DNA of 29,778 bases from Desulfurococcaceae archaeon (GTDB taxonomy: Archaea > Thermoproteota > Thermoprotei_A > Sulfolobales > Desulfurococcaceae). This document shows, piece after piece, positions 6,726 through 25,503 of the stretch; the first letter of the stretch is position 1; every line of letters starts with the position of its first letter. Where the stretch lies: the NCBI GenBank assembly GCA_038888155.1, contig JAWAJB010000008.1, positions 1 through 29,778 on the forward strand. Direction: 5' to 3'. The position numbers and the translations under genes were made by a program. The notes under the pieces were generated by a model. That model was not told the origin of the DNA and did no database searches. It saw nothing but the letters and a program-made list of their open reading frames with translations.

Positions 6726-6743
6726 TTTGTAAAGAAGTAAGAT

Positions 6744-6832
6744 TAAAATTCTTTTTGCAGTACTTGCATCGAAGATTGTTCTATAGTGGCAGCAGTGACT
6801 GCAGAAGCGCGGAAACAGGCAAAAGTTTAAAA
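6744..6832. promoter_or_regulatory. Divergent BRE/TATA-like promoters for the ATPase operon (-) and the major pilin (+)
   Basis: Minus-strand AAAAGAATTTTAA at about 6744-6756 precedes the ATPase start. Plus-strand AAAAGTTTAAAA at 6821-6832 lies about 22 nt before GTG 6854. Confidence 0.55.
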
Positions 6833-6853
6833 GTAAAAAATGCTAGAATTAAC

Positions 6854-7273
6854 GTGCGCAGAAAAGGCATAAGTGGAGTGGTTGTGGCGGTTCTCTTGAC
6901 GATTGTTGGGATCGCCGCCGTTCTGATGTTCTGGGGCGTGATCAGCGGCCTCATCGGGGGAAGACGATTACAAGGAACCATAGACGCGGCTCAGATTATA
7001 GTCACAGAAACCGGGGCAAGGCTCGCCGTCACGGTCTCAAACACGGGATCCATAGATTTCCGCATATCATCCATCAAGTTGGATGAATCATCGGTCGATA
7101 CTTCGCAGTGCACTCCGAACCCGGCGAACCAGCTGGTATCTTCTGGCGGAGCCCTATCAATCGTGTGTAGAGTTACTGCAGAAGCTGGCAAAACGTATAT
7201 ACTCACGTTGGAAATCGAAGGTTCTGGGAGAAAAAGCGCATTAACCGAATCGGTCTACGCTAGAAGAGGTTAA
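6854..7273 (+). CDS. Probable major archaeal type IV pilin (139 aa)
   Basis: From GTG 6854: MRRKG/ISGVVVAVLLTIVGIAAVLMFW, a canonical class III signal peptide, followed by a small beta domain (LAVTVSNTGS). Has its own promoter-like box. Confidence 0.88.
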   Translation: MRRKGISGVVVAVLLTIVGIAAVLMFWGVISGLIGGRRLQGTIDAAQIIVTETGARLAVTVSNTGSIDFRISSIKLDESSVDTSQCTPNPANQLVSSGGALSIVCRVTAEAGKTYILTLEIEGSGRKSALTESVYARRG

Positions 7274-10321: not shown

Positions 10322-11086
10322 TTATGTTCGTACAATAACTTTTTTCACCACGTACTGTATCAGTATGATTCCATTTTCTCCATGGTCTATAGTCAATTGA
10401 CGTCTCATAGGGATGCCCAGGAGTTCAACAATGCGCCCCTCTGATGTTAGTAGTTCAACGATGAGTTCTAGCTTCTGGCAGTACTTCAATTCCGTGTATA
10501 CACTGCTCAGGTTTAGGAAGACTTCTATGTTTTGGCCACCCGCGAAAGTATTCTCGCTGAGAAGCTTACCTCCGATCTCGATGGTGAGCGTTGGTATTTG
10601 AACCGAAATACGCTTGCACTTATAGAAGTAGAAGCTACACTCCTCTACCTGGATCGCAGGGCGCAGGAGAATTACTCCCTGATCCTTCTCTATGAAAACT
10701 AGCGTAGAAGGTGTAGCATTCGCGTAGGGTTCAGGGTCTCCGTAGATTAGCCCAGTTGCCCCAGAATCGTCGAGCTGTGCTATAGCAGCTGGGAGTGGAA
10801 CGTTGTAGTCGAAGCTCCACGAAGGTAGTGTTGCATCCTCTTCGTAAGTGAGTATCGTGATGCTGAGGATATAAGCGCTGGACTTGAACGCATACTTCGT
10901 TTGTAGTCGCATGCCTCCGGAGCCTCTGTCGAGAAGCGTCGCTAGTGAAAGTAAGTTTGCTTTTAATACTTCCGCGCTCGTAGCTCGTCTCGGAAATAGG
11001 AGGGGTCTCAGAACGGTGAAGGCCAATACCGTTGCAGCCATAGTTACTGAAAGCAGAAGCGCTGCTTCAACGGCTCTGCTGGGCAC
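10322..11086 (-). CDS. Pilin-like protein immediately downstream of E1
   Basis: MPSRAVEAALLLSVTMAATVLAFTVL N-terminal helix followed by a beta-rich body. 4-nt gap after the E1 stop. Confidence 0.6.
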   Translation of the reverse strand: MPSRAVEAALLLSVTMAATVLAFTVLRPLLFPRRATSAEVLKANLLSLATLLDRGSGGMRLQTKYAFKSSAYILSITILTYEEDATLPSWSFDYNVPLPAAIAQLDDSGATGLIYGDPEPYANATPSTLVFIEKDQGVILLRPAIQVEECSFYFYKCKRISVQIPTLTIEIGGKLLSENTFAGGQNIEVFLNLSSVYTELKYCQKLELIVELLTSEGRIVELLGIPMRRQLTIDHGENGIILIQYVVKKVIVRT

Positions 11087-11090
11087 AGGT

Positions 11091-11990
11091 TTAAGTGTTT
11101 TCAGGACTATAAAGGTTCTTCGCCTCTGATCGTCCGCTGGAGCATACTTCGCATTGGGAGTTTCTCTCTAGATCGTAAACTCCATAAAAGTTAAGGGCAG
11201 AATTTATGAATAGCCGCTTCCCGGCTAGAGGCAAACCTGTTTCTTTCGGCCATGTACCCGTTTCTTGGAAGTAGTCAAACCCTAGCAGCACCTTAACAAC
11301 TTCTTGAGCCATGACAGCGCCGAGGATGGAGGTTGTACTGGGTAATGCGGGGATCTTTGGCTCGGTGAATTCAAATGGGGTTCCCGAGCACGAAAGCCGG
11401 TGGAAAAGCGCTTTTAACTCGTTCTCAGCTAAGTTGCAGTACAGGCAAGCAGTGTAATCTGGAATCACTACCTGGACATAGCCAATGAAGCCACTCATAC
11501 CACCGTCAATGAGAGGTTTCTTATTGTGCACCGCAGCGCTGTTTAGTGTGAGTCGTGCGGCTAAGCTGTCCAGGCACGATACGTAGACCTGGGTGACTTT
11601 ATACAGCTCGTGATCGAAAGGTATACCGTGGATGTCGGCATTCACCGGGAAAATTCTTGTGTGTTGGTAGGGGGAGAGTTCTGCGGCTCTTAGCGCGAGG
11701 GCATCTACTTTAGCTCTTCGCTTGAGTGCATCATCCCTTCTGAAGAAGATACAACGGTTCAAATTAGAAATGACGACATAGTCGAAATCCACAACGTAGA
11801 TGTTCCCCACGCCAAAAAGGATGAGATTCTTTACGACCTCATTGCCCAGGGCTCCAGCGCCCACCACTAGTACGTGCGCCTGTTCTAATTTCTCCTGCTT
11901 CCAGCTAGGTATGAGCTTCTGGCGGCTAGCGACATCATCGTCGTACTTAGACACTCTCGATACTATTAGGCCAGTTTCCATGACTACCAC
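11091..11990 (-). CDS. Ubiquitin-activating enzyme E1 (ThiF/MoeB/UBA family)
   Basis: Nucleotide-binding VLVVGAGALG, VDFDYVVISNLNR, Zn-binding CLYC and CEVC, and a candidate catalytic Cys in RLSCSG downstream of the first CxxC. Confidence 0.93.
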   Translation of the reverse strand: MVVMETGLIVSRVSKYDDDVASRQKLIPSWKQEKLEQAHVLVVGAGALGNEVVKNLILFGVGNIYVVDFDYVVISNLNRCIFFRRDDALKRRAKVDALALRAAELSPYQHTRIFPVNADIHGIPFDHELYKVTQVYVSCLDSLAARLTLNSAAVHNKKPLIDGGMSGFIGYVQVVIPDYTACLYCNLAENELKALFHRLSCSGTPFEFTEPKIPALPSTTSILGAVMAQEVVKVLLGFDYFQETGTWPKETGLPLAGKRLFINSALNFYGVYDLERNSQCEVCSSGRSEAKNLYSPENT

Positions 11991-12220
11991 TTAAGAAGGT
12001 TTCTTATAGGGATTTTGCCACAGTATAGGCACATGACGTTGCCAATCAAGTTCGAAACGCACTTGGTATGGTATAAAGCGCCACAGTTAGGACAGATCAT
12101 GAGGCTATCGCTAAAGGATAGCTCGCCTCTACATATGAGACAAACTTTGGGTAAACGGAGAAGCTTTATCACCACCAGGTCATGAGATGACATGATGACC
12201 GATAAATTTTTCTGAACCAC
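11984..12220 (-). CDS. Small RING-variant zinc finger, putative E3 ligase
   Basis: C-x2-C-x12-C-x2-C-x4-H-x2-C-x9-C-x2-C (C4HC3). Overlaps the E1 start. True start may be ATG 12193. Confidence 0.8.
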   Translation of the reverse strand: MVQKNLSVIMSSHDLVVIKLLRLPKVCLICRGELSFSDSLMICPNCGALYHTKCVSNLIGNVMCLYCGKIPIRNLLKW

Positions 12221-12234
12221 CTCCTAAAAACTTT

Positions 12235-13221
12235 GTGTCGCTTCCCAGGATTATATCGATTCGAAGATATGGTGTTGCCCTATCGCCCACAATCATCAGA
12301 GTAAAAACTTATCCTGTCGCAACCGCCGAGCTCCTAACTAAAGAGCTAGCGATACAGTACATGAGAGCTCTTAGATTAACTAGAAGAAAAGTTAACCAAT
12401 TAATAATCGATTTCCTTGACGGAAAGGTATCAGACTATGAATTAAGAAAGGAGTATTTAAGACTGGCACAAGAAGCCAATGATATAGCACAAGCAGTCTT
12501 AGCGTTAATAAATTTTAGCTATTTGATAGAAGATATTGAGGATTCTATCAAACTTATAGAAAGAATAATAATATATTTGTGTAGGAATAAGAATGGATTA
12601 AATGATTTTAGCCGAATATTGCTTAGAAATATCATTAATAATAACTTAACAAAAATATATAATTACAAGAAAACTTTAAAACAAATTTATAAATCTGTGA
12701 AAGAGAAATTAGTAGAGCTTCAAATATTTATGAATATTTTTGGAAAACAGTTAAAAATTTCATTCGGGCCTGCTTATCTTCAGAGGTTGGATGAAATCGC
12801 AGCGTTATATGTGCAATACAGTTGGGCATTGAACGAGCTAAGAGCTATTCGATTATCGATGAACATAGGGTTAATTGATTTCCAGGACGAACTATTGAAG
12901 ATGATGAACGAGATAGCAATGCTAAGACAACTAAGGGCTCAGCTTCGCCTTGGTGAATTGAACAAAGATGAATACATTAGACAGGTAGAGAAGAGTCTTG
13001 AATCAATTCAAGAAATCGAATTAAGTATCACTGAGAAAATAGAAAAATTTAAAGTAATGAAAACAGATATATCAAGAAATGAAGATTATTTGCAGAAAAT
13101 TCTAGGAAGAAAAACTTTTCTAAAACTAAAAAGGATGATGGATATTTCTGAGTTATCGATACAAAAGATAAATAATATTCTTTCAAAAAGTAAAGTGATG
13201 GCTACTCTGGAAGAAGATTAG
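12235..13221 (+). CDS. All-helical coiled-coil protein with two Gly-turn hairpins
   Basis: 328 aa, no TM segment. Hairpin motifs DFLDGKVSDYELRKEYLRL and QLRLGELNKDEYIRQVE. Confidence 0.75.
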   Translation: MSLPRIISIRRYGVALSPTIIRVKTYPVATAELLTKELAIQYMRALRLTRRKVNQLIIDFLDGKVSDYELRKEYLRLAQEANDIAQAVLALINFSYLIEDIEDSIKLIERIIIYLCRNKNGLNDFSRILLRNIINNNLTKIYNYKKTLKQIYKSVKEKLVELQIFMNIFGKQLKISFGPAYLQRLDEIAALYVQYSWALNELRAIRLSMNIGLIDFQDELLKMMNEIAMLRQLRAQLRLGELNKDEYIRQVEKSLESIQEIELSITEKIEKFKVMKTDISRNEDYLQKILGRKTFLKLKRMMDISELSIQKINNILSKSKVMATLEED

Positions 13222-14191
13222 CTATCCTCTCGAGAATTTCTTCCTCTTTTCGGAAAAGATTGACAAATTTTGATAGTAAAACTTCAGCTTCTTTACTATA
13301 AATATCAGAATCTGTAAGAGAATTCAGAATTTTTTCAAAAAATACTCTTTTTGTTACTATATTGTTGATTAATGTTGCGCAATCTTTTTTAGATAAGTAA
13401 AAGATTTCAGCTTCTTCCTTTAAAGTTTCTATCATTTGTGATAACGCATTCAGCTGTTTCTCGAGTTGTTCCTTCAGGTTAGTGAGCTCTGGAGTTGCTC
13501 CTTCAATTAGTATCCTAAGGTTAATTTCTTCAAGACTTTGTTCCAAAAGTTCAATGCTCTTATAAATATTTTGAATTCCTTTTTTCATTACAATTTTTCT
13601 GCTTTTAGGTATTTGCATGAATATCGTAAGTAAAGATGAAACAATGCGAATTTCATCATCTGATAAATTTGTTTTGTCTTTTATATAAAATTTTAGTTTA
13701 TCAAGGTATAGAAAGAGTAAATCTATCTCTTGCAGTATAGTTTTGTCTATTTCTGCTGAGCTAATATAGAATGAAAAGACTTCAGAAATATTTTTAACTA
13801 AAGTACTCTTAATTTCAACGAGGGTGGTAATATCTGTGGATACCAACTGCTGTAGTTCAGGTGTATTTATATAGTTTAAAAGTAAAGATTTGAGTCTAGA
13901 AATTTCCTTTTTTACATCATCGGGCGATGTTTTTCTTAATCCCTCCATAACTTCAATATAGAGGGCTTCAGCGTTTAGGAGCTCCTCGAAAATGTTTCTG
14001 AAAATGCTTTCTGGTTCAATGAAAGATACTTGAATTAAGTTTTCTTGCTCAAGAGTTGTTAACGCTCTAAGAACATCAGATTTACTCAAGCCTGTCAACT
14101 TTGCTATGTCACTAATTTTCCCTCTATATGTTTTCTCTGATGAGCTTAGAACAATATACTTGAGCACTTTAACTGCAGTTTCATCAAGCAT
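13202..14191 (-). CDS. Winged-HTH domain fused to a long coiled-coil region
   Basis: N-terminal KISDIAKLTGLSKSDVLRALTTLEQENLIQV wHTH signature. Remainder is heptad-rich and helical. Confidence 0.8.
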   Translation of the reverse strand: MLDETAVKVLKYIVLSSSEKTYRGKISDIAKLTGLSKSDVLRALTTLEQENLIQVSFIEPESIFRNIFEELLNAEALYIEVMEGLRKTSPDDVKKEISRLKSLLLNYINTPELQQLVSTDITTLVEIKSTLVKNISEVFSFYISSAEIDKTILQEIDLLFLYLDKLKFYIKDKTNLSDDEIRIVSSLLTIFMQIPKSRKIVMKKGIQNIYKSIELLEQSLEEINLRILIEGATPELTNLKEQLEKQLNALSQMIETLKEEAEIFYLSKKDCATLINNIVTKRVFFEKILNSLTDSDIYSKEAEVLLSKFVNLFRKEEEILERIANLLPE

Positions 14192-14192
14192 T

Positions 14193-15611
14193 TTAATCCC
14201 CTCTCAACTTAAACAGCAAGAAAATTAAGAGAAGCACTTGTATCATGATTATTGCAAGTAGTATTACCAATGGCGTTAATTCAATCGTGCTCTTTACCTC
14301 GTAAATCGGAGGTGAAGGCATAATAATGGATATTGCTAAATCACCTAGCGGGGAAATATCCAATAAGAGGTTAAGTTCGCATGCGTTAATTGTGATGTTG
14401 ACCGGGATTCGTGGGAAATGTGTAATCACATATGTTATACCCTGCTTCTGAATGGGCACCACAGCTCCGTTGATATAAACTTTAGGGGGACAGTGCTCGT
14501 CTGTCCGCAAAATTATGTCAGAGAAATTAAGGCGAACAGTGTAATAATAATTCGAGTCAATTGTTATGTTTCTCTCCCATACCTTTAGTACAAGACCAGA
14601 AAAATTGTAAAAAATAGATATAGAATAATTTCCTTCAGTGAGACAAACTATCGGTTTAGATGATTTTACTTTAGATGAATTAACTATTAGAAATACATTT
14701 TCATCAGCGTTTTCTAAACTCATTCTTAACGTGTATATTCTGGGGCGACAGGTGTAAAAGATATTCTCTAACCTCTCATTACACGTCGCGTGTGGGCTAT
14801 CCTCTATGAAGTACTCGACCGTGCAGGATTCTCGCCTAGGTTGTATCCAGCGGTTTGGTGATATTAACGCAAGCTGGGGGGGTTTACTGCTTAACGTAAA
14901 GCTGCCGCATGTTAAGCGGACAGAAAGGTTGCATGAAGGGTCTACACCTAAGACGTGGGTTAAGTTAATCATTTGTGGCACCACAAGTAACGGTAATTCG
15001 AGAGGTTCTCCACCAGTAAGATCAGCTAGATTAGCGCTTGCTAGGAGAGATTCGCCGTAGTATACTTCCATGATCCATGGATAGGTGTGGTTTTCGTCGC
15101 TAGCCACCGGTAGATACAAGCCTGAGCCTCCTAAGACGAACCTGAGCGGATCGTCGCTATCACCTAGGTGAATCGTGATCGATAATGAGGCAAACAATGG
15201 GTCGTTAATCACCGAGGCTACTTTCGTGAGGTGTGGAGTAACCACGTACTCTGATGTTAAGTTGTAGAACTTAATATCCAAGTTGGATAGATTTTTTAGC
15301 TTTAAGTAAACTACAAAGAAATTTTCTTTTGTAGAATTAACCGTAAAACCTAAGCTCCAGTTGCGGTCATAGAAGTAATATTCTGCTGACAAGTTGGCGA
15401 GCATCGTTCCATTAAAAAAGTTCATGAAGTGGGAGGCGTTAAATACGATCCAACCTATTTTAAAGAAAAGATTATTTAGTACTTCAAGCGGGAGAGAATT
15501 GCCATCTATGTCGAGAAGCTGAACTGTAACATTGTTCTCCGGAATCGCATAGACGAGCGTAAGTAGAGACGAGAGCAGAGCCATCCCGATCGCGAGAAGG
15601 ATCCTACGCAT
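14193..15611 (-). CDS. Type I membrane-anchored surface glycoprotein
   Basis: Signal peptide, beta-rich ectodomain with about 17 N-x-S/T sequons and several Cys, C-terminal TM helix and a short KLRGD tail. Confidence 0.8.
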   Translation of the reverse strand: MRRILLAIGMALLSSLLTLVYAIPENNVTVQLLDIDGNSLPLEVLNNLFFKIGWIVFNASHFMNFFNGTMLANLSAEYYFYDRNWSLGFTVNSTKENFFVVYLKLKNLSNLDIKFYNLTSEYVVTPHLTKVASVINDPLFASLSITIHLGDSDDPLRFVLGGSGLYLPVASDENHTYPWIMEVYYGESLLASANLADLTGGEPLELPLLVVPQMINLTHVLGVDPSCNLSVRLTCGSFTLSSKPPQLALISPNRWIQPRRESCTVEYFIEDSPHATCNERLENIFYTCRPRIYTLRMSLENADENVFLIVNSSKVKSSKPIVCLTEGNYSISIFYNFSGLVLKVWERNITIDSNYYYTVRLNFSDIILRTDEHCPPKVYINGAVVPIQKQGITYVITHFPRIPVNITINACELNLLLDISPLGDLAISIIMPSPPIYEVKSTIELTPLVILLAIIMIQVLLLIFLLFKLRGD

Positions 15612-16054
15612 TACGCTTCCCCCTTCACAACGACGTACACCCGACGAATTAGCAAAATACTATCTAAAACAGGAGTTTGAAACGAAAATGAAATTTCTAT
15701 AAGGCGTTTTCCGTCACTAAAGCGTCCAATCTCCCTTACTATTACCCAGTTAGACCTGGATTCGTTAGTAAGGAGAGCGTAAACATTAGCTTGAGCACTA
15801 GTAAGCTGGCTCATTGCGAAAATGTTCAGAAAGATTATGAAGATAAGTGGAAGATAAAGAATGAGAGAGAGAAGGAAGAATTTGAAGTATCTTCTTTTCT
15901 CGAGTTCGAAGATTATGGGAAATACCGCTCGCCTACCGTCTCCTTGCCTGTAATCACCGATGATTAGATACCTTTTATCGAAATCTGGTGGAGGTTTTTC
16001 TCTTTTTTCTCGCTGCCGCACTCTATACCTTATCTCCCCTTCCGTGTTCTCCAT
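15611..16054 (-). CDS. Single-pass membrane protein, unknown function
   Basis: Likely start ATG 16054 (MENTEG) with GGTGA upstream. Central TM helix FFLLSLILYLPLIFIIFLNIFAM after a charged N-terminal region. Confidence 0.7.
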   Translation of the reverse strand: MENTEGEIRYRVRQREKREKPPPDFDKRYLIIGDYRQGDGRRAVFPIIFELEKRRYFKFFLLSLILYLPLIFIIFLNIFAMSQLTSAQANVYALLTNESRSNWVIVREIGRFSDGKRLIEISFSFQTPVLDSILLIRRVYVVVKGEA

Positions 16055-16058
16055 CTTC

Positions 16059-16526
16059 TCACCTTCCCCTTTTAATGACTTCTTTGAAGTGTACTCTTTC
16101 ATAGCTATTCCCTCTGATAGTGAAAATATCGTACTCCCCTGTTAATGGGTCCATTACCAACGCCACATGGTAAGATTGTGAAAAGCATCTTCGATGGGTC
16201 TCTAGGTCTACGCTGGAAAGGAAGCAGCCATATCCAGGGTGACTATGAGCCCATCCCACTACAAGCAATTTGCGTTTTTCAAGAATTCCTGAAATTTCCC
16301 CCAAGCTACCTTCAAGAGGCACAACAAACGTCTCACTTGCGTCAGCCTTCAGTGGGAGATAGTCGATCACTTCGACCCAATCCTTTCCCTTGTACACATA
16401 CCTGTCCCCCAAGAGAAAACCTATGGCCTCTTTCGGCAAAGTCCTAACAAAGTGCTTGAAGATTTTTTTCAGGACCTTGTAATGGATGTACACGTCGGCA
16501 ATTTCAATTTCTGTCTCATTTTTCAT
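16059..16526 (-). CDS. JAMM/MPN+ metalloprotease (Rpn11-like deubiquitinase)
   Basis: PKEAIGFLLG (catalytic Glu) and VVGWAHSHPGYGCFLSSVD (HxH-x7-S-x2-D), close to the eukaryotic Rpn11 motif VVGWYHSHPGFGCWLSxVD. Confidence 0.95.
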   Translation of the reverse strand: MKNETEIEIADVYIHYKVLKKIFKHFVRTLPKEAIGFLLGDRYVYKGKDWVEVIDYLPLKADASETFVVPLEGSLGEISGILEKRKLLVVGWAHSHPGYGCFLSSVDLETHRRCFSQSYHVALVMDPLTGEYDIFTIRGNSYERVHFKEVIKRGR

Positions 16527-17109
16527 CGTTTCTCCCCCCTCTTTTTCTTACAATTTTTGGAGGCGGATTTAGCCTGAAGTACTCAGCTGCTCGCATGCAA
16601 ATAGGTGGGTTGTGTATCGGGTCATCTACGTCCGGATTTTCTATCAGGAGCTTCACGCCCTCTACAACGTTTAGCAAGCTGAGCGTTGTGGTCCATTTTA
16701 CTAAGGCACGCCAGCAGATAACCCCAGTACCGCCGTAATCCTTCCCGGGAGCGATGTTCGGGTGAAATATCGGTGTAATCCACACTATTCTAATCGGAGC
16801 ACCCAATTTCCTCTCCGAGGGGAAGGGATAGTTGCGCAACACGTAGAGATCAAAAGTATGATGATTTAACGGAACTATTTTCTCGTTAGCATCTAAAACG
16901 TATCCTTGCGCTTCTACTTCGATTCTGTATTTCATGAATGCGGGTACTTTTTCTAAACCATAGACAGTTGGAACTTCTATCTCTTTAAATTCACGTTTTT
17001 TAGATATATCATAGAATTTTTGTTTTTCTAAAATCTTAGAAGTTGTTTTTTCGAGTTCCTTTTCTTCATTGTTAAGGCGATTTATAAGCGCTTCTAAAGT
17101 CAGCATCAC
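16516..17109 (-). CDS. Ubiquitin-conjugating enzyme E2 (UBC fold)
   Basis: NYPF...PIRIVWITPIFHPNI...GVICW...W...LLIENPDVDDP: HPN motif, catalytic Cys, downstream Trp and the NP-x-x-x-D-P motif. Start overlaps the Ubl stop. Confidence 0.93.
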   Translation of the reverse strand: MMLTLEALINRLNNEEKELEKTTSKILEKQKFYDISKKREFKEIEVPTVYGLEKVPAFMKYRIEVEAQGYVLDANEKIVPLNHHTFDLYVLRNYPFPSERKLGAPIRIVWITPIFHPNIAPGKDYGGTGVICWRALVKWTTTLSLLNVVEGVKLLIENPDVDDPIHNPPICMRAAEYFRLNPPPKIVRKRGGRNDEK

Positions 17110-17390
17110 TACCCGCCTACAGGTCGCGCGATGAGCTGAAGGCGGTCACCGTCCCTTATACCCAGCTCAGCTAACGTTTTTTCAAAGTGAGCTGTACCGA
17201 ACTCTTTTGCGCCTCCAGGGAAGACAAGCCTATACCCTAAATCAGGATTTTCCAAGTCTATCTTGAGCGCGTTGGCAACCGTTCTGAAAACATCTCCTAG
17301 TCGTGTAGCAGGAGAGACCTCAAGTTCTACCTCATCGCCGGTTAAAACGGAGATAATGGTAATCCGCCATGTCCCTCTTGCAGAGGCCAC
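17109..17390 (-). CDS. Ubiquitin-like protein (beta-grasp) with a free C-terminal GG
   Basis: VLTGDEVELEVSP, YRLVF and KTLAELGIRDGDRLQLIARPVGG-stop align by eye with ubiquitin TLTGKTITLEVEP, QRLIF and [23 protein letters not shown]. Confidence 0.92.
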   Translation of the reverse strand: MASARGTWRITIISVLTGDEVELEVSPATRLGDVFRTVANALKIDLENPDLGYRLVFPGGAKEFGTAHFEKTLAELGIRDGDRLQLIARPVGG

Positions 17391-17412
17391 GAGATCTCCA
17401 TAATTAAGACTA

Positions 17413-17428
17413 AGGATAAAAAGTTTTT
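17413..17428 (-). promoter_or_regulatory. BRE/TATA-like promoter of the Ubl-E2-JAMM operon
   Basis: Minus-strand AAAAACTTTTTATCC about 25 nt upstream of the Ubl start. Confidence 0.55.
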
Positions 17429-17441
17429 GCTGGAATTTGAG

Positions 17442-17798
17442 CTAAGAAACCGGAGTTGAGTCAGTGCACTGTGTATCACAACGCCGAAGGTTAAGAATCC
17501 GTTGGGCGGTCCTCAGCTTATCCCTGTATTGGAGGTGTAAACGAGCGTAAGTTAAGTAATCTATGTGGCCTTCCGCAAACAACTCGAATAACATATGGAG
17601 GCGGTTGCTGTAATTTTCGATCTCTCTTTCGACTAAATGGGCTAGATCACGTACAGCTACTATCTTCGGGCTGACTGTTGAAGTACTATAAACCTTACAT
17701 TTCCAGAATTCTTTCAAGCAAAGGCTAGAATCAGGCTTCTTTCGTGCCAACATGCATGATTTTTCCAAGAATTTTTTCCTAAAAAACGGGCATGTCAT
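17442..17798 (-). CDS. Small Cys4 metal-binding domain fused to a helical hairpin
   Basis: CPFF...C...C...CKVY at the N-terminus, then LFELFAEGHIDYLTYARLHLQY. GAAAACTTTATAG box about 23 nt upstream. Confidence 0.7.
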   Translation of the reverse strand: MTCPFFRKKFLEKSCMLARKKPDSSLCLKEFWKCKVYSTSTVSPKIVAVRDLAHLVEREIENYSNRLHMLFELFAEGHIDYLTYARLHLQYRDKLRTAQRILNLRRCDTQCTDSTPVS

Positions 17799-17846
17799 GA
17801 TAAACTTATATTTTTCACAACTATAAAGTTTTCGGCAATCGTGTGA

Positions 17847-20135
17847 TTATCCGCTGTACATTAGTTGAGTTGCCTCCGCTATTGTCTTAAGGGCGTTCTC
17901 TATATTATCTATCTCCTCTATTACGCGTCTAAGCTTGGTTTCGTATTCGTCTCTCAATCTTGAGTATGCTCTTGCGCTTGCCCTATCTTTATACTGTTCT
18001 AACTTGCTCAAATATTCATTGAGTTTTTTCCTCTCCTCCTCAAGCTTATTTTTTTCGCTATAAAGCTTAGTAGCGAGATTAGACATTTCATCGTATAGTC
18101 TGATCCTGAGAGCGTTCAGTTTTTTCAGCGCGCTTTCAGGATCTCCTTTAAGGTAAATGCTTCTGCATGCACTAATCTCTTCTCCGCTGCTTTCAAGAAA
18201 GTGCATCATTTCGCGGACACCAGTCACACTGTAAAGGGGTCTGAGTGCAGAGAGCATTCCGTCCACACTGCTGGATATCACCCTGCATAGGTTGACAAAC
18301 TCGCAGGCAGCTCGAACCACCTGTTCTGGAAGAATTCCCGAAAGTTTCTCTGTCAACTCGTCGCAGCTCGTTCCTGCCGAGATAGCTCTTTCTATGCCTC
18401 TCCATACGTTTGTCTTCATTCGGACGTAAAAGACTCCCGCAATGCCACCAAGGATTATGCTGCTAATAGTTGTCACAATGAGCAGCACGTTTGTAGCTGC
18501 TCTTACGTTCACCGTTACGGGATCAGTGACGCATTTATCGTAGGGTCCCGAAGGGGGGACCGCTACGCTGAACCTATGGCCTCCAGCCCCCCTCACGATT
18601 AGCCTTAGGGTGTCGGTGGGAGGTCTAAGGATCGTCTCTGAGCGACCATCGGGGAGAGTGTGACTGACGTTTAAGGATGGCAACATAGTTAGAACATCGT
18701 TTGTTACATCACTTCCATTTAGCGTATCCAGTATACGAAGCTCGAGCAATATTTCTCCCCCCTCCTCTACCTCCCTTTGAAGCGCCCTTAATTGGCAGCT
18801 GATGGGTCTAGCTTGCACGCAAAGCTGTCCGACGCGGACCTTTTTAGAAGGGTAGTATCCTTGAGGGGCGATTTCCACGTAGACATCGTAGCAACCGGGT
18901 ACGCGCAACTGAATCGAGACTAAGGTACGACGCTCAGTAGAATCAAAGCGTACACTATCGATCGCCCTGTCTCCATCGCCCACCACCACTACACCGCTTA
19001 GGCCACCACTTCGATCAACCTCTACAGAGACTTCAGCCCGCTCTAATGCATAAACCAACCCTGTCCGTAACGTAGCCACTAGATTAAAGTCACGAAAGCC
19101 TACCGTGAGAACTTCAAGGTCGCTCCCCCTCATGCATATCACGATTACAGCGGGAACATCTGTGTAACGGGTGGCTGGAATCAAGGCCAGTACACTGTCA
19201 GCGAACTCAAGGAGTGGTCCAAACCAGCTACCTTCGATTCTCTCGCGGAAGAATAGGCATCCGTCATCCGTCAGAGCAAAATACCCCTGGCTTGCTACTA
19301 TGAAAGCTAAACCAGCGCGTAGCGCACTCACACCCCCCCTCTCACTAATCATTGTGCCATCTCCTAGCACGAGGTGCTCCACGCCATCGACCTTTACAAC
19401 GCCTATTGGCCGTGAAGGTTTTATGTTGCCTAACGATTTGATAAATAAGGTTTCGGGGTTAAGCAGCAGAACACTCTTGTCCGCCAGGATCATGTAGATG
19501 ACTCGCTCGCCCTCCATTGAAAAAACAATGTCTGCGGTCAAGCTGTAACTCAAGCTAGTCCAGTTTTTCCCTGTAAAGACAGCTATCGTGAAACTGTCTA
19601 GATCTAACATAATGATGTGCTTCCACGTGTTAAGGGGTCTCGCGTTAAAAGTGAGGGCAATAGTTTTCCCTTCAAAGATGTCCAGCAGCATAGGTTTACC
19701 GCAGTCGATAAGGACGAACTTACTGTAGACCCTACGAATACTAAGACCTTGACAAGTGCACAAGGTTCTGGAGCCCCCGCGGAGGCTGTATAACTCCAGA
19801 GAATCCTCTCTCTGCAGCAGTAAATCCTCCTCAAGAACGTAGATAGCCTTTAGACCCCGAGGGTCTATTTTCCCAGTCCGCAACCCCTCTGATGTCACCA
19901 CGAGAACGGTTCCATCTCTGCTGACAGCAGCAAAGGATCTAGTGAAGATATTAAATTCGTGGAGAAAGACGTCTTTGAACCTGTAAACGCTAAGAGGCTC
20001 TACGCGCTGGCCCATCGCAACAGCAGAATGTAGAAGGCATGCTACGACTAAAACTAGAAGGTAAATTAATCCTATACGTTTGGAAGCCCTTTTCTCCGAA
20101 ACTGCTGGTATGAAGAAAAGCTTATTAGGAAGCAC
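17847..20135 (-). CDS. Receptor-like single-pass membrane protein (762 aa)
   Basis: Signal peptide, short beta-strand repeats (propeller-like), Ig-like segments, TM helix VLLIVTTISSIILGGIAGVFYV and a cytoplasmic helical/coiled-coil tail of about 190 aa. Confidence 0.78.
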   Translation of the reverse strand: MLPNKLFFIPAVSEKRASKRIGLIYLLVLVVACLLHSAVAMGQRVEPLSVYRFKDVFLHEFNIFTRSFAAVSRDGTVLVVTSEGLRTGKIDPRGLKAIYVLEEDLLLQREDSLELYSLRGGSRTLCTCQGLSIRRVYSKFVLIDCGKPMLLDIFEGKTIALTFNARPLNTWKHIIMLDLDSFTIAVFTGKNWTSLSYSLTADIVFSMEGERVIYMILADKSVLLLNPETLFIKSLGNIKPSRPIGVVKVDGVEHLVLGDGTMISERGGVSALRAGLAFIVASQGYFALTDDGCLFFRERIEGSWFGPLLEFADSVLALIPATRYTDVPAVIVICMRGSDLEVLTVGFRDFNLVATLRTGLVYALERAEVSVEVDRSGGLSGVVVVGDGDRAIDSVRFDSTERRTLVSIQLRVPGCYDVYVEIAPQGYYPSKKVRVGQLCVQARPISCQLRALQREVEEGGEILLELRILDTLNGSDVTNDVLTMLPSLNVSHTLPDGRSETILRPPTDTLRLIVRGAGGHRFSVAVPPSGPYDKCVTDPVTVNVRAATNVLLIVTTISSIILGGIAGVFYVRMKTNVWRGIERAISAGTSCDELTEKLSGILPEQVVRAACEFVNLCRVISSSVDGMLSALRPLYSVTGVREMMHFLESSGEEISACRSIYLKGDPESALKKLNALRIRLYDEMSNLATKLYSEKNKLEEERKKLNEYLSKLEQYKDRASARAYSRLRDEYETKLRRVIEEIDNIENALKTIAEATQLMYSG

Positions 20136-24282: not shown

Positions 24283-25503
24283 ATGCGCAGGGGCACTTCG
24301 AGTATCTTTATAGTTTTTCTCATCGTACTGAGTTTAAGCGTTCTGGCGGCTCCCTATACGGTTAGTGCCACTACAGATAAGCAAGAGTACAAGCCTGGCG
24401 ACAAAGTTACTGTGCGCGTCACTATTAAGCCGGCAGAGACTGTGGTTCTTCTCTGGGAAGTTAAAGATCCTGAGCAAAAGAGGAGAGATTTCGGTCAGGT
24501 TACTTGTCAAGGGGGAACATGTAGTTTTGATTTTGTGACGGGGAGTAATTGGCCCACAGGCACATACACCCTTATCATCGCGGTTTCCGGTACAAACGAT
24601 AAGGGTTACGTCACCTTCACGCTACGCGTACCGGAAGCTCAGCCTCCCGCACCACCCCCATCTGCCCCTCCGACCCCTCCTGCTATCGACTACGCGTTCC
24701 TCTCCCGCATCAGGATTGAGGCCACTAACAAGTCTCTATGTGAACTCAATGCTACTATCCGCATCCTTTCTCACGTCATGAACACGTTGAATTTAACATT
24801 GAATCCCGAGTATCTTGAGCAGCTCAATAGGATAGCCGAAACCCTGAAGAAGGCCATCGATAGTTATAGTAAGAAAAATTACGAAAATGCATATACATTA
24901 GCAAACTTAGCTTATCAGGAGATAACTAAACTCATAGAAGTTTTCGCAAATGACGCCATTCAAGTTTTCAGGAATGTATTGAGTTACTTTTTGGCCCGGA
25001 CACAGGATCCTACAACGGTTGAACTATTAAACTCCATAGGCACGGAATTGGCAAGTGCGTCACCAACTGACAAGGATATTCTTACTAAGCTCGCAGCGAC
25101 GGGGAGGGTTCTCGTCGTTATCGCTCGAACCCTTAAGGTTCCTGAACTGGAGAAGAGCTTATTGAGCTTGAGCCAGAAAGCAGAGGCCTTGGAGGGGCTC
25201 GTGAAGAGCTTGAATCAGTCGAATGTTGAACTTCAAGCAAGGTTACTCGTTCTACAGTCTGAGAAAAGTGAGTTGGCTGAGCAAGTCGAGAACCTAACAA
25301 GCCTTGTGAACGAGCTCAGAGGAGAGCTTAATCGTGTCAACCAATTAAACGCGGAATTAAGCAACGAAAACTTGCAACTCAAGGAACAATTGTCTCAAAG
25401 CGTAACTCGAAGCAGTGCAATTGCAGCCGCTTTAGCAGCCGCACTTATGGGGGCTGCGGTTGGAACCGCGCTAGGCAAATTTATAGGAAAAAAGCGGAAG
25501 TAG
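24283..25503 (+). CDS. Surface stalk protein: MG2-like domain, Pro-rich linker, coiled coil, C-terminal anchor (SlaB-like architecture)
   Basis: TTDKQEYKPGDKVTV domain, PEAQPPAPPPSAPPTPPA linker, long heptad repeat, TM helix and KKRK tail. AAACCTTATAAG box at 24249-24260. Confidence 0.8.
   Translation: MRRGTSSIFIVFLIVLSLSVLAAPYTVSATTDKQEYKPGDKVTVRVTIKPAETVVLLWEVKDPEQKRRDFGQVTCQGGTCSFDFVTGSNWPTGTYTLIIAVSGTNDKGYVTFTLRVPEAQPPAPPPSAPPTPPAIDYAFLSRIRIEATNKSLCELNATIRILSHVMNTLNLTLNPEYLEQLNRIAETLKKAIDSYSKKNYENAYTLANLAYQEITKLIEVFANDAIQVFRNVLSYFLARTQDPTTVELLNSIGTELASASPTDKDILTKLAATGRVLVVIARTLKVPELEKSLLSLSQKAEALEGLVKSLNQSNVELQARLLVLQSEKSELAEQVENLTSLVNELRGELNRVNQLNAELSNENLQLKEQLSQSVTRSSAIAAALAAALMGAAVGTALGKFIGKKRK

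What the first reader, a model, noticed from the sequence alone, without database searches (positions are those of the whole stretch)
11091..17390. Complete eukaryote-like Ub/E1/E2/RING-E3/JAMM set with catalytic motifs intact
Seen: all five components lie within 6.3 kb, with the E1 adenylation motif and a candidate catalytic Cys, the E2 HPN and Cys, an eight-ligand RING variant, the JAMM E/HxH/D residues and a Ubl ending in GG. Known: most archaea have only E2-independent SAMP/Urm1 plus UbaA conjugation. Inference: if this genome is a Thermoproteota lineage, as it appears, it extends the range of the three-enzyme cascade.
Basis: partly seen in the sequence, partly recalled or inferred. Interest (0 to 1): 0.85.

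Follow-up and report, generated by a model that had tools for sequence, protein, structure and literature searches.

The report
Archaeal ubiquitin cascade beside pilus genes
An archaeon of the Thermoproteota group carries an intact ubiquitin-like tag plus E1, E2, RING and JAMM genes of the kind already shown to work in Caldiarchaeum, but here the set is split in two, interleaved with membrane-protein genes and sits next to type IV pilus genes.

Summary
All five genes lie on the minus strand between 11091 and 17390, and every catalytic motif is intact and conserved in relatives. The closest characterised system is the Caldiarchaeum subterraneum Ubl/E1/E2/srfp/Rpn11 cascade. The Ubl's best PDB match is CsUb, the JAMM matches Rpn11 and CsRpn11, and the RING has the same C4HC3 ligand pattern as Cs srfp.

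It is not one compact operon. Ubl-E2-JAMM is packed with two membrane-protein genes and an HTH gene. RING-E1 is packed with a pilin-like gene. A low-GC gene pair separates the two halves. The E1 is a minimal ThiF-sized enzyme without a UFD. The E2 belongs to a distinct long clade whose named members are all Thermoproteati.

Near-identical proteins carry the label Thermofilaceae, but also four other MAG labels, so only the Thermoproteati placement is firm.

The novelty is moderate. GenBank already names these E2s, whereas a 2023 preprint says crenarchaea lack such a system. The most interesting new point is a conserved linkage to FlaI/TadC-type pilus genes, seen directly in a Calditenuis genome.

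The parts
17109..17390 (-). Ubiquitin-like modifier (93 aa), made in mature form ending Gly-Gly-stop. It has three lysines (K43, K62, K71).
   Evidence: ORF. The junction sequence GGC GGG TAG shows no C-terminal propeptide. Best PDB matches are CsUb 6FJ7/6FNN/2MQJ at 6e-5 to 1.4e-4, with their identity verified. Pfam YukD 1.4e-5. 46% identical to the Ubl half of the Calditenuis Ubl-E2 fusion. The beta-grasp fold itself was not modelled here.
16516..17109 (-). E2 ubiquitin-conjugating enzyme of the 'long' form (197 aa; probable ATG start at 17106). HPN at 116-118, catalytic Cys132.
   Evidence: Pfam UQ_con 29.4 bits against a cut-off of 27. HPN and C132 are invariant in 17/17 sequences. Model pLDDT 90.8. 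All 18 Foldseek matches at E<=1e-3 are E2s. Compared with short archaeal E2s it has an insert of about 25 aa after helix 1 and a longer HPN-to-Cys loop. It falls in a 49-row clade with SH-aLRT 99.
16059..16526 (-). Rpn11-like JAMM/MPN+ metalloprotease (155 aa), with E33, H94-S-H96, S104 and D107.
   Evidence: Pfam JAB 1.9e-14. PDB matches: yeast Rpn11 8.5e-13 and CsRpn11 6FJV 7e-11. The motif is invariant in 6/6 sequences. It overlaps the E2 gene by 11 nt.
15611..16102 (-). tm163: single-pass membrane protein with a Lys/Arg/Glu-rich N-terminal part of about 75 aa. Its ORF overlaps the JAMM gene by 44 nt. Function unknown.
   Evidence: ORF. One hydrophobic segment at 76-94. No Pfam, NCBIfam, PADLOC or PHROG family. 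Copies at >=90% identity exist in other MAG records.
14193..15611 (-). tm472: predicted surface protein with a signal-like N-terminus and a C-terminal membrane anchor. Its start overlaps the tm163 stop.
   Evidence: TM segments at 4-22 and 439-457. No Pfam hit. Atlas leads only: an unnamed Thermoproteota cluster at 0.91, and PEGA/CarboxypepD_reg-type archaeal clusters at 0.88-0.89.
13202..14191 (-). HTH329: N-terminal winged-helix DNA-binding domain followed by a long helical or coiled-coil region. Probable regulator. Very low GC3 (0.26).
   Evidence: Pfam HTH_IclR 1.7e-5 (24.9 bits against a cut-off of 22), at residues 25-54. GC3. A protein of similar build (361 aa; HTH_Crp_2 1.1e-3, under its cut-off) lies beside the Ubl-E2 fusion in L002, but no sequence similarity was detected.
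12235..13221 (+). cc328: helical protein with no recognised family. It is the only plus-strand gene inside the span. Low GC3 (0.31).
   Evidence: ORF. No family in Pfam, NCBIfam, PADLOC or PHROGs. GC3.
11984..12220 (-). Small RING finger protein (78 aa from the GTG start, or 69 aa from Met10). Candidate E3. Ligand pattern C-X2-C-X12-C-X2-C-X4-H-X2-C-X9-C-X2-C.
   Evidence: Pfam Prok-RING_1 31.8 bits against a cut-off of 29.1; zf-RING_2 6.5e-5. Ligands. The pattern is almost the same as that printed for C. subterraneum srfp, C-X2-C-X11-C-X2-C-X4-H-X2-C-X10-C-X2-C. PDB matches to RING-H2 proteins EL5 and RNF24, and to PHD fingers, are weak. The RING-E2 complex prediction gave weak support.
11091..11990 (-). 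Minimal E1 (299 aa; probable ATG start at 11981). It is a single adenylation domain with a Zn site (C182, C185, C280, C283) and candidate catalytic Cys201 on a flexible crossover loop. It has no UFD and no separate Cys domain.
   Evidence: Pfam ThiF 7.3e-47. By sequence it is closest to UBA6/UBA1 active adenylation domains (2e-28), ahead of MoeB at 8e-14. Invariant residues and C201 (>=90%) come from a 13-sequence alignment. Model pLDDT 83.4, low at 198-210. By fold it is closest to ThiF 1ZUD (TM 0.72/0.89), UBA5 and MoeB.
10322..11086 (-). o254: protein with a pilin-like N-terminal hydrophobic helix. It starts 4 nt after the E1 stop, so it is probably co-transcribed with RING-E1.
   Evidence: ORF and spacing. 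TM segment at 8-26. Atlas: unnamed archaeal (mostly Thermoproteota and Bathyarchaeota) clusters at 0.93-0.95, and structural likeness to DUF7289 clusters at TM 0.49-0.51.
17442..20135 (-). Two upstream genes on the same strand. o118 is Cys-rich at its N-terminus. o762 has an N-terminal TM, a large outer part, a second TM at 544-562 and a cytoplasmic coiled-coil tail. They may belong to the same transcription unit.
   Evidence: ORFs. TM segments. Only weak helical-hairpin hits (YwqH-like, WXG100), all under their cut-offs.
3259..7273 (.). Neighbouring type IV pilus-type genes: TadC/FlaJ-like platform (3259-4980, -), FlaI/PilB-like ATPase (4977-6725, -) and a pilin-like ORF (6755-7273, +). Downstream of the platform gene lie five small ORFs with N-terminal hydrophobic helices (2-3249, -).
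   Evidence: Pfam T2SSF 4.9e-8 and T2SSE 2.2e-21. UpsA pilin hit at 2.7e-6, far under its cut-off. N-terminal TM segments. Homologues of both core genes (36% and 39% identity) lie beside the Ubl-E2-JAMM genes in L002.

Best explanation
This is a working ubiquitin-type protein-conjugation system of the archaeal 'eukaryote-like' kind.

Proposed mechanism:
1. The 93-aa Ubl is translated already ending in Gly-Gly.
2. A compact E1, presumed to be a homodimer, adenylates that C-terminus with ATP.
3. The E1 takes the Ubl as a thioester on Cys201 of its mobile crossover loop (inferred).
4. The E1 passes it to Cys132 of the E2 (inferred).
5. The small C4HC3 RING protein binds the E2 and stimulates transfer to lysines of target proteins, as shown biochemically for the C. 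subterraneum homologues.
6. The Rpn11-like JAMM protease removes the tag. In relatives where Ubl and E2 are one polypeptide, it would also cut the two apart after Gly-Gly.

What is shown here: gene presence, intact and conserved catalytic residues, the folds of E1 and E2, and homology to the characterised system. Every chemical step is inferred.

The genes are organised as two transcription-unit-like blocks, each packed with membrane or pilin-like genes: Ubl-E2-JAMM-tm163-tm472-HTH, and RING-E1-o254. The whole lies in a type IV pilus-type locus. I therefore infer, with much lower confidence, that its targets or its regulation concern a cell-surface apparatus.
For: - All five families are detected, with E2, RING, JAMM and E1 above Pfam cut-offs.
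- Catalytic residues are invariant or nearly so: E2 HPN and C132 in 17/17; the E1 ATP loop, D68, D70, N76, K94, D141, R146, D162, C182, C185 and C280 in 13/13, and R79 and C201 in >=90%; the JAMM residues in 6/6.
- The E1 is closer in sequence to UBA6/UBA1 (2e-28) than to MoeB/ThiF (8e-14). It misses the NCBIfam cut-offs for ThiF (108 against 275 bits), MoeB (93 against 266) and the SAMP E1 UbaA (67 against 450).
- E2 model pLDDT 90.8, with only E2s among the 18 best fold matches.
- The Ubl's best PDB matches are CsUb. The JAMM matches Rpn11 and CsRpn11.
- The RING ligand spacing nearly equals that of Cs srfp. The cascade built from those C. subterraneum homologues was reconstituted in vitro (PMC5654768: abstract, passages and section 7 part 1 read; PMC6043591: passages).
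- RING-E2 complex prediction: weak support, score 0.45 against a best control of 0.02. The mark was reached by 58 of 80 solved complexes and 2 of 110 mismatched pairs, but scores of 0.60 or under came from only 7 of those 80 and from both passing mismatches. The runs agree in >=95% of contacts, and the partner's pLDDT is 70-72. RING-E2 complexes are solved many times over, so the pass may reflect likeness to them.
- Gene packing: overlaps of 1, 11, 44 and 1 nt, then a 1-nt gap, along Ubl-E2-JAMM-tm163-tm472-HTH329. RING/E1 overlap by 7 nt, and o254 follows E1 by 4 nt.
- Linkage to pilus genes: L002 (Ca. Calditenuis fumarioli, a 575-kb contig) has a Ubl-E2 fusion, a JAMM, and then T2SSE and T2SSF homologues within 2 kb. 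In addition, the E2 and T2SSE hit lists share six exact contig lengths besides the window's own (21186, 20806, 22030, 20982, 24380, 26172). I read these as the same contigs (inference).
Against: - No biochemical step was or could be tested here.
- The E1 is ThiF-sized. By fold it is nearest to ThiF, UBA5 and MoeB. It lacks the UFD that recruits E2 in canonical E1s and the extra domains drawn for the C. subterraneum E1 model. How it hands the Ubl to the E2 is therefore open.
- The RING pattern C4HC3 is also the PHD pattern. Its PDB matches are weak and mix PHD and RING-H2 proteins. The complex result is only 'weak support'.
- The Ubl reaches no Pfam cut-off, and its fold was not modelled.
- The E1's nearest relatives share no contig length with the E2 relatives. 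Neither L001 nor L002 has an E1 near its Ubl-E2-JAMM genes. So the presence of E1 and RING inside the island is shown only for the window and its near-identical copies.
- For the surface-apparatus reading: no homology was found between the window's membrane genes and those of L002 or L001. Direct synteny rests on one other genome. Neighbourhood alone is weak evidence for function.
Confidence: 0.72

Rival explanations
1. It is an antiviral defence island that works like the bacterial BilABCD/Bub systems. The Ubl would be conjugated to virion or virus-receptor proteins (archaeal viruses often use pili as receptors; recalled) rather than to host housekeeping targets.
For: - The core gene order Ubl-E2-DUB...E1 equals the Bil order Ubl-E2-DUB-E1 (passages), unlike C. 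subterraneum's ubl-e2-e1-srfp.
- The JAMM's best PADLOC hit is BilC, 8.2e-6.
- Composition is patchy, with GC3 from 0.26 to 0.75 across the window.
- Near-identical copies occur in MAGs with six different labels, on contigs never longer than 36 kb.
- The system has a sporadic, island-like distribution.
Against: - The E2 and Ubl hit no PADLOC model. The E1 hits only generic Cap2 'E1-E2' models through its adenylation domain.
- The Bil E1 has IAD+AAD+CYS domains and Bil has no E3. Here the E1 is a single domain and a RING is present.
- No known defence gene was found in the 16 neighbours scanned.
- No PHROG signal.
Confidence: 0.12
2. The five genes are a general proteostasis or regulation system, as proposed for Aigarchaeota, tagging proteins for the proteasome. 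In this reading the pilus and membrane genes are mere neighbours.
For: - This is the function proposed for the homologous Aigarchaeota systems (PMC6053391, passages).
- The JAMM is Rpn11-like.
- No sequence similarity links the window's membrane genes to those in L001 or L002.
- Thermoplasmata (L004) and Micrarchaeota (L005) relatives have compact operons without pilus genes nearby.
Against: - Tight overlaps tie JAMM to tm163 and tm472, and tie E1 to o254.
- The T2SSE/T2SSF linkage recurs in Calditenuis at only 39% E2 identity, and apparently on six other contigs.
- In L001 the JAMM itself carries a C-terminal membrane anchor.
Confidence: 0.3
3. The E1 and Ubl act as a sulfur-carrier pair of the ThiF/ThiS or MoeB/MoaD type, and the E2, RING and JAMM genes are unrelated or degenerate.
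For: - The E1 is ThiF-sized, has the MoeB-type double CxxC zinc site, and its best fold matches are ThiF and MoeB.
- Its top NCBIfam hits by E-value are ThiF and MoeB.
Against: - Those NCBIfam hits are far under their cut-offs (108 against 275 bits; 93 against 266).
- By sequence the E1 is nearer to UBA6/UBA1.
- The E2, RING and JAMM residues are intact and conserved.
- The Ubl is nearest to CsUb and ubiquitin, not to ThiS or MoaD.
- No thiamine or molybdopterin genes are in the window.
Confidence: 0.03
4. The whole 30-kb piece is a mobile element (plasmid, integrated element or virus) that carries the Ub set and a pilus-like transfer or adhesion apparatus between Thermoproteati lineages.
For: - Copies of seven island proteins at >=90% identity occur in MAGs labelled Thermofilaceae, Thermofilum, Thermosphaera, Desulfurococcaceae, Nezhaarchaeales and Bathyarchaeia. 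The longest contig is 36272.
- The window has no tRNA, rRNA or housekeeping marker.
- Composition is strongly heterogeneous.
Against: - No integrase, replication or capsid gene was recognised.
- There are no terminal direct or inverted repeats.
- The E2 has no tblastn match in 50,697 phage/archaeal-virus records or 72,556 plasmid records.
- More distant relatives of the same module sit on contigs of 575 kb (L002) and 196 kb.
- Mis-binning of an oddly composed region explains the labels equally well.
Confidence: 0.15

Closest known systems
Candidatus Caldiarchaeum subterraneum ubiquitylation operon (CsUb, E1-like, E2-like, srfp RING E3, CsRpn11): Nunoura 2011, Hennell James 2017, Fuchs 2018
   Same: - The same five protein families.
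- The Ubl's best solved relative is CsUb.
- The JAMM matches CsRpn11 at 7e-11.
- The RING has the same C4HC3 pattern, with spacers differing by one residue each.
- The E1's named relatives include 'Ca. Caldarchaeum sp.' ThiF-family proteins of 298 aa at 42% identity.
- E2 HPN and Cys are present, as is the E1 GxGxxG/NR/D motif set described for the Cs enzymes.
   Different: - Gene order and contiguity. Cs has rpn11 (reverse) | ubl-e2-e1-srfp, partly overlapping. Here it is ubl-e2-jamm-[3 genes] | [+ strand gene] | ring-e1-[pilin-like gene].
- CsUb is made as an 87-aa precursor cut after Gly78. Here the Ubl ends at GG-stop.
- The Cs E1 model is drawn with active and inactive Rossmann domains, a Cys domain and UBL domains. 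Here the E1 is a single 299-aa domain.
- The E2 belongs to a separate long clade with an insert of about 25 aa. No protein named C. subterraneum appeared among the 120 listed E2 hits, so its exact relation to the Cs E2 was not measured.
Bacterial BilABCD (types I and II) ubiquitin-like antiviral conjugation systems
   Same: - Ubl, E2, JAMM DUB and E1 in the order Ubl-E2-DUB-E1.
- The E1 Zn site is built from two crossover-loop cysteines and two C-terminal cysteines (one search compared).
- The JAMM's best PADLOC hit is BilC.
   Different: - The Bil E1 has an inactive adenylation domain and a mobile CYS domain, and Bil has no E3.
- The window's E2 and Ubl match no Bil model in PADLOC.
- The window has a RING, and its components are closer to eukaryotic and Caldiarchaeum proteins.
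Archaeal SAMP/Urm1-UbaA conjugation (E2-independent)
   Same: A beta-grasp modifier ending in GG, activated by a ThiF-sized E1 with a double CxxC site, and a JAMM protease for removal.
   Different: - An E2 and a RING are present here.
- The E1 scores 66.8 bits against a cut-off of 450 for the SAMP-activating E1 model. The JAMM scores 20.1 against 130 for the desampylase model.
Compact Ubl/E1/E2/JAMM(/RING) operons of Thermoplasmata, Micrarchaeota (DPANN), Asgard archaea and Planctomycetota
   Same: - The same families. L004 (Thermoplasmata) has E1-Ubl-E2-JAMM back to back. L005 (Micrarchaeota) has all five, including a RING-containing protein that matches the eight-ligand search pattern.
- E1 identity to the window is 35-38%.
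   Different: - Their E2s are the short form (144-166 aa) and fall outside the window's clade.
- No pilus genes were found beside them in the fetched loci.

Membership tests
Archaeal eukaryote-like ubiquitylation system (C. subterraneum type) | Ubiquitin-like beta-grasp modifier with a C-terminal Gly-Gly | tested here: met
   Ends ...VGG-stop. Best PDB matches are CsUb 6FJ7/6FNN/2MQJ, then ubiquitin. No Pfam cut-off was reached. The fold was not modelled, so fold membership rests on sequence only.
Archaeal eukaryote-like ubiquitylation system (C. subterraneum type) | E1-like adenylation domain with the ATP loop, adenylation residues and a catalytic Cys | tested here: met
   ThiF 7.3e-47. UBA6/UBA1 are the top PDB sequence matches. 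G44xG46xxG49, D68, N76, K94, D141 and R146 are invariant, and R79 and C201 are >=90% conserved, in 13 sequences. C201 lies on the low-confidence loop 198-210. That C201 is the catalytic residue is inferred.
Archaeal eukaryote-like ubiquitylation system (C. subterraneum type) | E2 with the UBC fold, the HPN motif and a catalytic Cys | tested here: met
   UQ_con above cut-off. HPN and C132 invariant in 17/17. Model pLDDT 90.8, and all 18 Foldseek hits at E<=1e-3 are E2s, with TM by target 0.46-0.59.
Archaeal eukaryote-like ubiquitylation system (C. subterraneum type) | Small RING finger protein (srfp) with an eight-ligand cross-brace pattern, encoded with the E1 | tested here: met
   The pattern C-X2-C-X12-C-X2-C-X4-H-X2-C-X9-C-X2-C compares with Cs srfp C-X2-C-X11-C-X2-C-X4-H-X2-C-X10-C-X2-C. 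Prok-RING_1 is above its cut-off. The gene overlaps the E1 gene by 7 nt. E3 activity is not testable here.
Archaeal eukaryote-like ubiquitylation system (C. subterraneum type) | Rpn11-like JAMM protease with the E...HxH...S...D motif | tested here: met
Archaeal eukaryote-like ubiquitylation system (C. subterraneum type) | Compact operon ubl-e2-e1-srfp with rpn11 juxtaposed on the other strand | tested here: not met
   The window order is ubl-e2-jamm-tm163-tm472-HTH329 / cc328(+) / ring-e1-o254. About 3.8 kb of other genes lies between JAMM and RING.
Archaeal eukaryote-like ubiquitylation system (C. subterraneum type) | E1 with extra domains (C-terminal UBL/UFD and a Cys domain) as modelled for the Cs E1 | tested here: not met
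   The E1 is 299 aa. The model shows one Rossmann-type domain plus a short C-terminal sheet, and its best fold matches are ThiF, UBA5 and MoeB. Some relatives (P0240-P0242) have C-terminal extensions that the window lacks. The Cs domain description comes and from a review.
Archaeal eukaryote-like ubiquitylation system (C. subterraneum type) | ATP-dependent E1~Ubl and E2~Ubl thioesters, RING-stimulated transfer, JAMM cleavage | not testable with these tools
   This needs biochemistry. Only a RING-E2 interface prediction was run, and it gave weak support.
Bacterial BilABCD | E1 (BilD) with an inactive adenylation domain plus an active one plus a mobile CYS domain; no E3 | tested here: not met
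   The window has a single-domain E1 and a RING.
Bacterial BilABCD | Proteins match the Bil profile models | tested here: not met
   PADLOC: the JAMM hits BilC at 8.2e-6; the E2 and Ubl have no hit; the 25 E1 hits shown are all Cap2-type 'E1-E2' models, and 2 further hits were not shown.
SAMP/Urm1-UbaA (E2-independent) | No E2 or E3; E1 is a UbaA equivalog | tested here: not met
   An E2 and a RING are present. The SAMP E1 model scores 66.8 bits against a cut-off of 450.
ThiF/MoeB sulfur-carrier adenylyltransferases | Equivalog-level match to ThiF or MoeB; linked cofactor-biosynthesis genes | tested here: not met
   108 against 275 bits and 93 against 266 bits. No such genes were found in the window. 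The fold is shared.
Archaeal type IV pilus locus (the neighbourhood, not the Ub set) | FlaI/PilB-type ATPase and TadC/FlaJ-type platform protein | tested here: met
   T2SSE 2.2e-21 and T2SSF 4.9e-8, both above their cut-offs. JGI names relatives 'flagellar protein FlaI'.
Archaeal type IV pilus locus (the neighbourhood, not the Ub set) | Pilins with class III signal peptides; a prepilin peptidase | tested here: inconclusive
   Seven small ORFs have one N-terminal hydrophobic helix. One has a UpsA hit at 27.6 bits against a cut-off of 130. o254 resembles DUF7289 clusters. No peptidase was found in the window. Signal-peptide cleavage sites were judged by eye only.

The most novel reading that the evidence does not exclude
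A distinct Thermoproteati lineage of the ubiquitin cascade is a dedicated module of a type IV pilus-like cell-surface machine. Its marks are a long E2, a minimal E1, a Ubl often fused to the E2, and a JAMM that is sometimes membrane-anchored. It would tag or regulate membrane, pilin-like or assembly proteins at the cytoplasmic face of the membrane. The association would be old, shared by Thermofilaceae-type archaea and Caldarchaeales. That would give the first concrete physiological target class for an archaeal ubiquitin system, and a prokaryotic precedent for ubiquitin control of surface proteins.
Probability: 0.22. Interest if true: 0.8.

Novelty: new variant of a known kind. Interest (0 to 1): 0.55.

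Why it matters
Archaeal E1/E2/RING ubiquitylation is the accepted model for the ancestor of the eukaryotic system. It has been worked out only with C. subterraneum proteins in vitro, and nobody knows what it modifies in cells.

This window matters in three ways:
1. It puts a complete, intact set in the Thermoprotei-type part of the TACK archaea, where a recent preprint says it is absent.
2. It shows a stripped-down version: a mature Ubl, an E1 without a UFD, and a long E2.
3. It places the genes in operon-like packing with membrane and pilin-like genes, inside a pilus locus that recurs in a distant genome.

The third point gives a testable lead to the system's natural substrates.

If the lineage is close to cultivated Thermofilum or Desulfurococcales, genetics may be within reach. 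That has not been the case for Caldiarchaeum or for most Asgard archaea.

Tried and rejected
- Taxonomic markers: no tRNA, no Rfam family and no ribosomal or other housekeeping protein in the window. Taxonomy rests on the names that sources give to near-identical and related proteins.
- Viral or plasmid origin: PHROGs gave only two weak unknown-function hits among 20 proteins. tblastn of the E2 found nothing in the phage or plasmid collections. No terminal repeats.
- Defence system: the PADLOC scan of 16 proteins gave only generic E1 and JAB hits plus weak noise.
- Homology between the window's non-Ub neighbours and those of L001-L005: blastp at E<=0.05 found none beyond T2SSE and T2SSF, apart from one chance-level hit of cc328 in L004 (E 0.02). 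The 'same architecture' of HTH/coiled-coil and large anchored proteins in L002 is therefore only a resemblance.
- RING relatives in Planctomycetota loci: the tblastn hits did not contain a full eight-ligand pattern under my regular expression (0 of 4 Planctomycetota ORFs). One of the two L005 ORFs did.
- Literature: searches listed no paper describing an E1/E2/RING set in Thermofilaceae, Thermofilum or Desulfurococcales, or a link between archaeal type IV pili and ubiquitin genes. Only the listed top hits were inspected, and subscription-only papers are not covered.
- Five paper-tool calls failed on term format. Four were re-sent in corrected form. The look-up of PMC11188069 was not repeated, so that paper was seen only as a listing.
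Supplementary Fig. 1 of PMC5654768 (the 'more comprehensive analysis' of archaeal clusters I-III) and the supplementary tables of the Hatano preprint may already list Thermoprotei-type operons.

Full report
**What is there.** Between 11091 and 17390 the minus strand carries, in the direction of transcription:
- a 93-aa ubiquitin-like protein (17390-17109)
- a 197-aa E2 (17109-16516)
- a 155-aa JAMM protease (16526-16059)
- a 163-aa single-pass membrane protein (16102-15611)
- a 472-aa protein with a signal-like N-terminus and a C-terminal anchor (15611-14193)
- a 329-aa HTH protein (14191-13202)
- after a 328-aa gene on the plus strand (12235-13221), a 78-aa RING finger (12220-11984), a 299-aa E1 (11990-11091) and, 4 nt later, a 254-aa protein with a pilin-like N-terminus (11086-10322).

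Pfam supports the five named families: ThiF 7.3e-47, Prok-RING_1 1.3e-7, JAB 1.9e-14 and UQ_con 6.9e-7, all above their cut-offs. The Ubl scores just under the YukD cut-off. The five genes, however, form two blocks separated by about 3.8 kb of other genes.

**Motifs and folds.**
- E2: HPN(116-118) and Cys132 are invariant in 17 of 17 relatives. An AlphaFold model built on 16 sequences has pLDDT 90.8. All 18 PDB fold matches at E<=1e-3 are E2 enzymes.
- E1: the GxGxxG loop, D68, D70, N76, K94, D141, R146, D162, C182, C185 and C280 are invariant, and R79 and C201 are >=90% conserved, in 13 sequences. In the model (pLDDT 83.4) the only weak internal stretch is 198-210, the loop that bears C201.
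- E1 classification: by sequence it is nearest to the active adenylation domains of UBA6 and UBA1 (2e-28, against 8e-14 for MoeB). By fold and size it is a ThiF/UBA5/MoeB-type single domain, with no UFD.
- JAMM: E33, H94, S95, H96, S104 and D107 are invariant in 6 of 6. The best PDB matches are Rpn11 and the C. subterraneum Rpn11-like protein.
- Ubl: it ends GG-TAG, and its best solved relatives are the C. subterraneum ubiquitin entries.
- RING: the ligands read C-X2-C-X12-C-X2-C-X4-H-X2-C-X9-C-X2-C. This is almost identical to the pattern printed for the C. subterraneum small RING finger protein, which was shown to act as an E3 (PMC5654768; abstract and passages).
- RING-E2 complex prediction: weak support only. 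Score 0.45 against a best control of 0.02. The mark was reached by 58 of 80 solved complexes and 2 of 110 mismatches, but scores of 0.60 or under were seen for only 7 of those 80 and for both passing mismatches. The runs agree in >=95% of contacts, and the partner's pLDDT is 70-72. It may also reflect likeness to the many solved RING-E2 complexes.

**Relatives and lineage.**
- The E2 has close relatives in metagenomes (17 hits). Its own 90% cluster contains a GenBank protein named 'ubiquitin-conjugating enzyme E2 [Thermofilaceae archaeon]'. Clusters at 61-65% identity carry the labels Thermofilum sp., Desulfurococcaceae and Nezhaarchaeales.
- A profile search found 390 E2 relatives, of which 120 were listed.
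- I built a tree of 98 rows: 93 of the 120 listed, the window, and four locus-encoded E2s. I left out 27 unnamed rows (P0200-P0233, apart from the seven named ones), and I cut the fusions to their E2 part. The window falls in a clade of 49 'long' E2s (SH-aLRT 99). Its named members are all Thermoproteati: Thermofilaceae, Thermofilum, Desulfurococcales, 'Thermoproteota archaeon' and Ca. Calditenuis. The Asgard (Sigyn- and Promethearchaeota), Thermoplasmata and DPANN E2s lie outside it.
- The long form has an insert of about 25 residues after helix 1 and a longer HPN-to-Cys loop.
- Six of the 49 rows are Ubl-E2 fusions, so in those organisms a protease must cut after Gly-Gly. The adjacent JAMM is the obvious candidate (inference).
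- The E1's nearest representatives are unnamed (51%), 'Thermoproteota archaeon' (45%) and 'Ca. Caldarchaeum sp.' (42%, 298 aa).
- Family-level assignment is uncertain. Copies at >=90% identity of seven island proteins occur in MAG records labelled Thermofilaceae, Thermofilum, Thermosphaera, Desulfurococcaceae, Nezhaarchaeales and Bathyarchaeia, on contigs of at most 36 kb.

**Context.** The window is dominated by membrane and surface proteins.
- It holds a type IV pilus-type ATPase and platform protein (4977-6725 and 3259-4980), with several small ORFs that have a single N-terminal hydrophobic helix.
- In the Ca. Calditenuis fumarioli genome (L002, a 575-kb contig) a Ubl-E2 fusion and a JAMM lie within 2 kb of homologues of that same ATPase (39% identity) and platform protein (36%). 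An HTH/helical protein sits on the other side, and there is no E1 within 10 kb.
- The E2 and ATPase hit lists share six exact contig lengths besides the window's own source, spread over three different E2 clusters. I read these as co-location on the same contigs.
- In the Desulfurococcales locus L001 the JAMM protein itself has a C-terminal membrane anchor.
- In the window, overlaps of 1, 11, 44 and 1 nt, then a 1-nt gap, chain Ubl-E2-JAMM-tm163-tm472-HTH329. E1 is followed at 4 nt by o254, which resembles DUF7289-type archaeal proteins.
- By contrast, the Thermoplasmata (L004) and Micrarchaeota (L005) relatives are compact operons with no pilus genes in the fetched flanks.

**Composition.** GC3 is 0.41-0.54 for the Ub genes but 0.31 and 0.26 for cc328 and HTH329. 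Similar low values occur at 2-1953 and 7373-10321, and values up to 0.75 at the right end. The pair between the two Ub blocks therefore looks compositionally foreign. There are no integrase, capsid or PHROG signals, no terminal repeats, and no phage or plasmid match for the E2.

**Interpretation.** The best-supported reading is a functional ubiquitin-type conjugation cascade homologous to the C. subterraneum system, in a stripped-down and rearranged form. All chemistry is inferred from homology. The lack of a UFD on the E1 leaves the E1-to-E2 hand-off mechanistically open. Four rivals remain:
- a Bil-like antiviral role
- a general proteostasis role with accidental neighbours
- a mobile element
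- a sulfur-carrier pair.

The first three cannot be excluded. The fourth is unlikely given the NCBIfam scores far under their cut-offs, the intact E2, RING and JAMM, and the Ubl's affinity to CsUb.

**Novelty.**
- The kind of system has been known since 2011 and was reconstituted in 2017-2018. It is reported across Aigarchaeota and Asgard archaea, with sporadic bacterial operons.
- Grau-Bove 2015 saw only Ub-like labels in Crenarchaeota YNPFFA genomes.
- A 2023 preprint says crenarchaea lack the system, while showing a TACK E2 clade.
- My searches listed no description of the set in Thermofilaceae- or Desulfurococcales-type archaea, nor of a pilus link. Supplementary figures that might list such operons could not be read.
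- I therefore rate it a new variant of a known kind, of moderate interest. The conserved pilus and membrane context is the part most worth following.

Noticed in passing
window 10322-20135; protein clusters: Copies at >=90% identity of seven island proteins occur in GenBank MAGs labelled Thermofilaceae, Thermofilum sp., Thermosphaera sp., Desulfurococcaceae, Ca. Nezhaarchaeales and Ca. Bathyarchaeia. No contig holding them is longer than 36272 bases. This means either mis-binning of an oddly composed region or a shared mobile element.
   Followed up: partly
window 12235-14191; also 2-1953 and 7373-10321: Patches of very low synonymous GC (GC3 0.26-0.35) sit in a window whose other genes have GC3 of 0.41-0.75. 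The cc328/HTH329 pair between the two halves of the Ub set is one such patch. In another MAG the assembly breaks exactly at HTH329/tm472 (partial proteins on contigs 16098 and 14481).
   Followed up: partly
L002 9755-10573; proteins P0011, P0013, P0015, P0134, P0138: In six relatives the Ubl and E2 are one polypeptide, with Gly-Gly at the junction. In the window the same junction reads GG-TAG-TG-ATG, i.e. a stop and a frame change. The fusions imply obligatory cleavage after GG.
   Followed up: partly
L001 2116-2883: The JAMM protease of a Desulfurococcales MAG is 255 aa, with a C-terminal hydrophobic anchor at residues 228-246. In the window the JAMM gene instead overlaps a separate single-pass membrane protein gene by 44 nt.
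   Followed up: partly
window 11984-12220 and 17442-17798: In three MAG records the accession numbers of near-identical neighbours leave room for only one gene between cc328 and o254, and for three genes between tm163 and o762. The exact RING and E1 sequences as read here are not in the protein collection. This suggests that the small RING ORF, and either o118 or the Ubl, are not annotated in those records. This is inferred from numbering only.
   Followed up: no
window 20854-20912 and 24445-24503: A 59-nt stretch is 75% identical between the 1192-aa and the 406-aa anchored surface proteins. The 406-aa protein has a weak MG2-domain hit. They are probably paralogous N-terminal domains.
   Followed up: no
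window 28305-29338: Two overlapping ORFs both match DUF1616, but different parts of it and in reverse order. The first matches profile positions 160-286 and the second matches 4-119. GC rises to 56-63% here.
   Followed up: no
L005 5170-9311; L004 8903-10983: A Micrarchaeota MAG has all five parts in 3 kb: E1, a 232-aa RING-containing protein that matches the eight-ligand search pattern, JAMM, Ubl and a short E2. A Thermoplasmata MAG has E1-Ubl-E2-JAMM back to back, with no RING detected.
   Followed up: partly
window 17442-17798: o118, directly upstream of the Ubl gene, has four cysteines in its first 34 residues (C3, C15, C27, C34) and a helical C-terminal half. It matches no family.
   Followed up: no
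protein P0240: A 421-aa 'Thermoprotei archaeon' relative of the E1 carries an N-terminal extension of about 70 residues, which looks ubiquitin-like by eye in the alignment, and a C-terminal extension. Two other relatives (P0241, P0242) have long C-terminal extensions. The window's E1 has neither.
   Followed up: no
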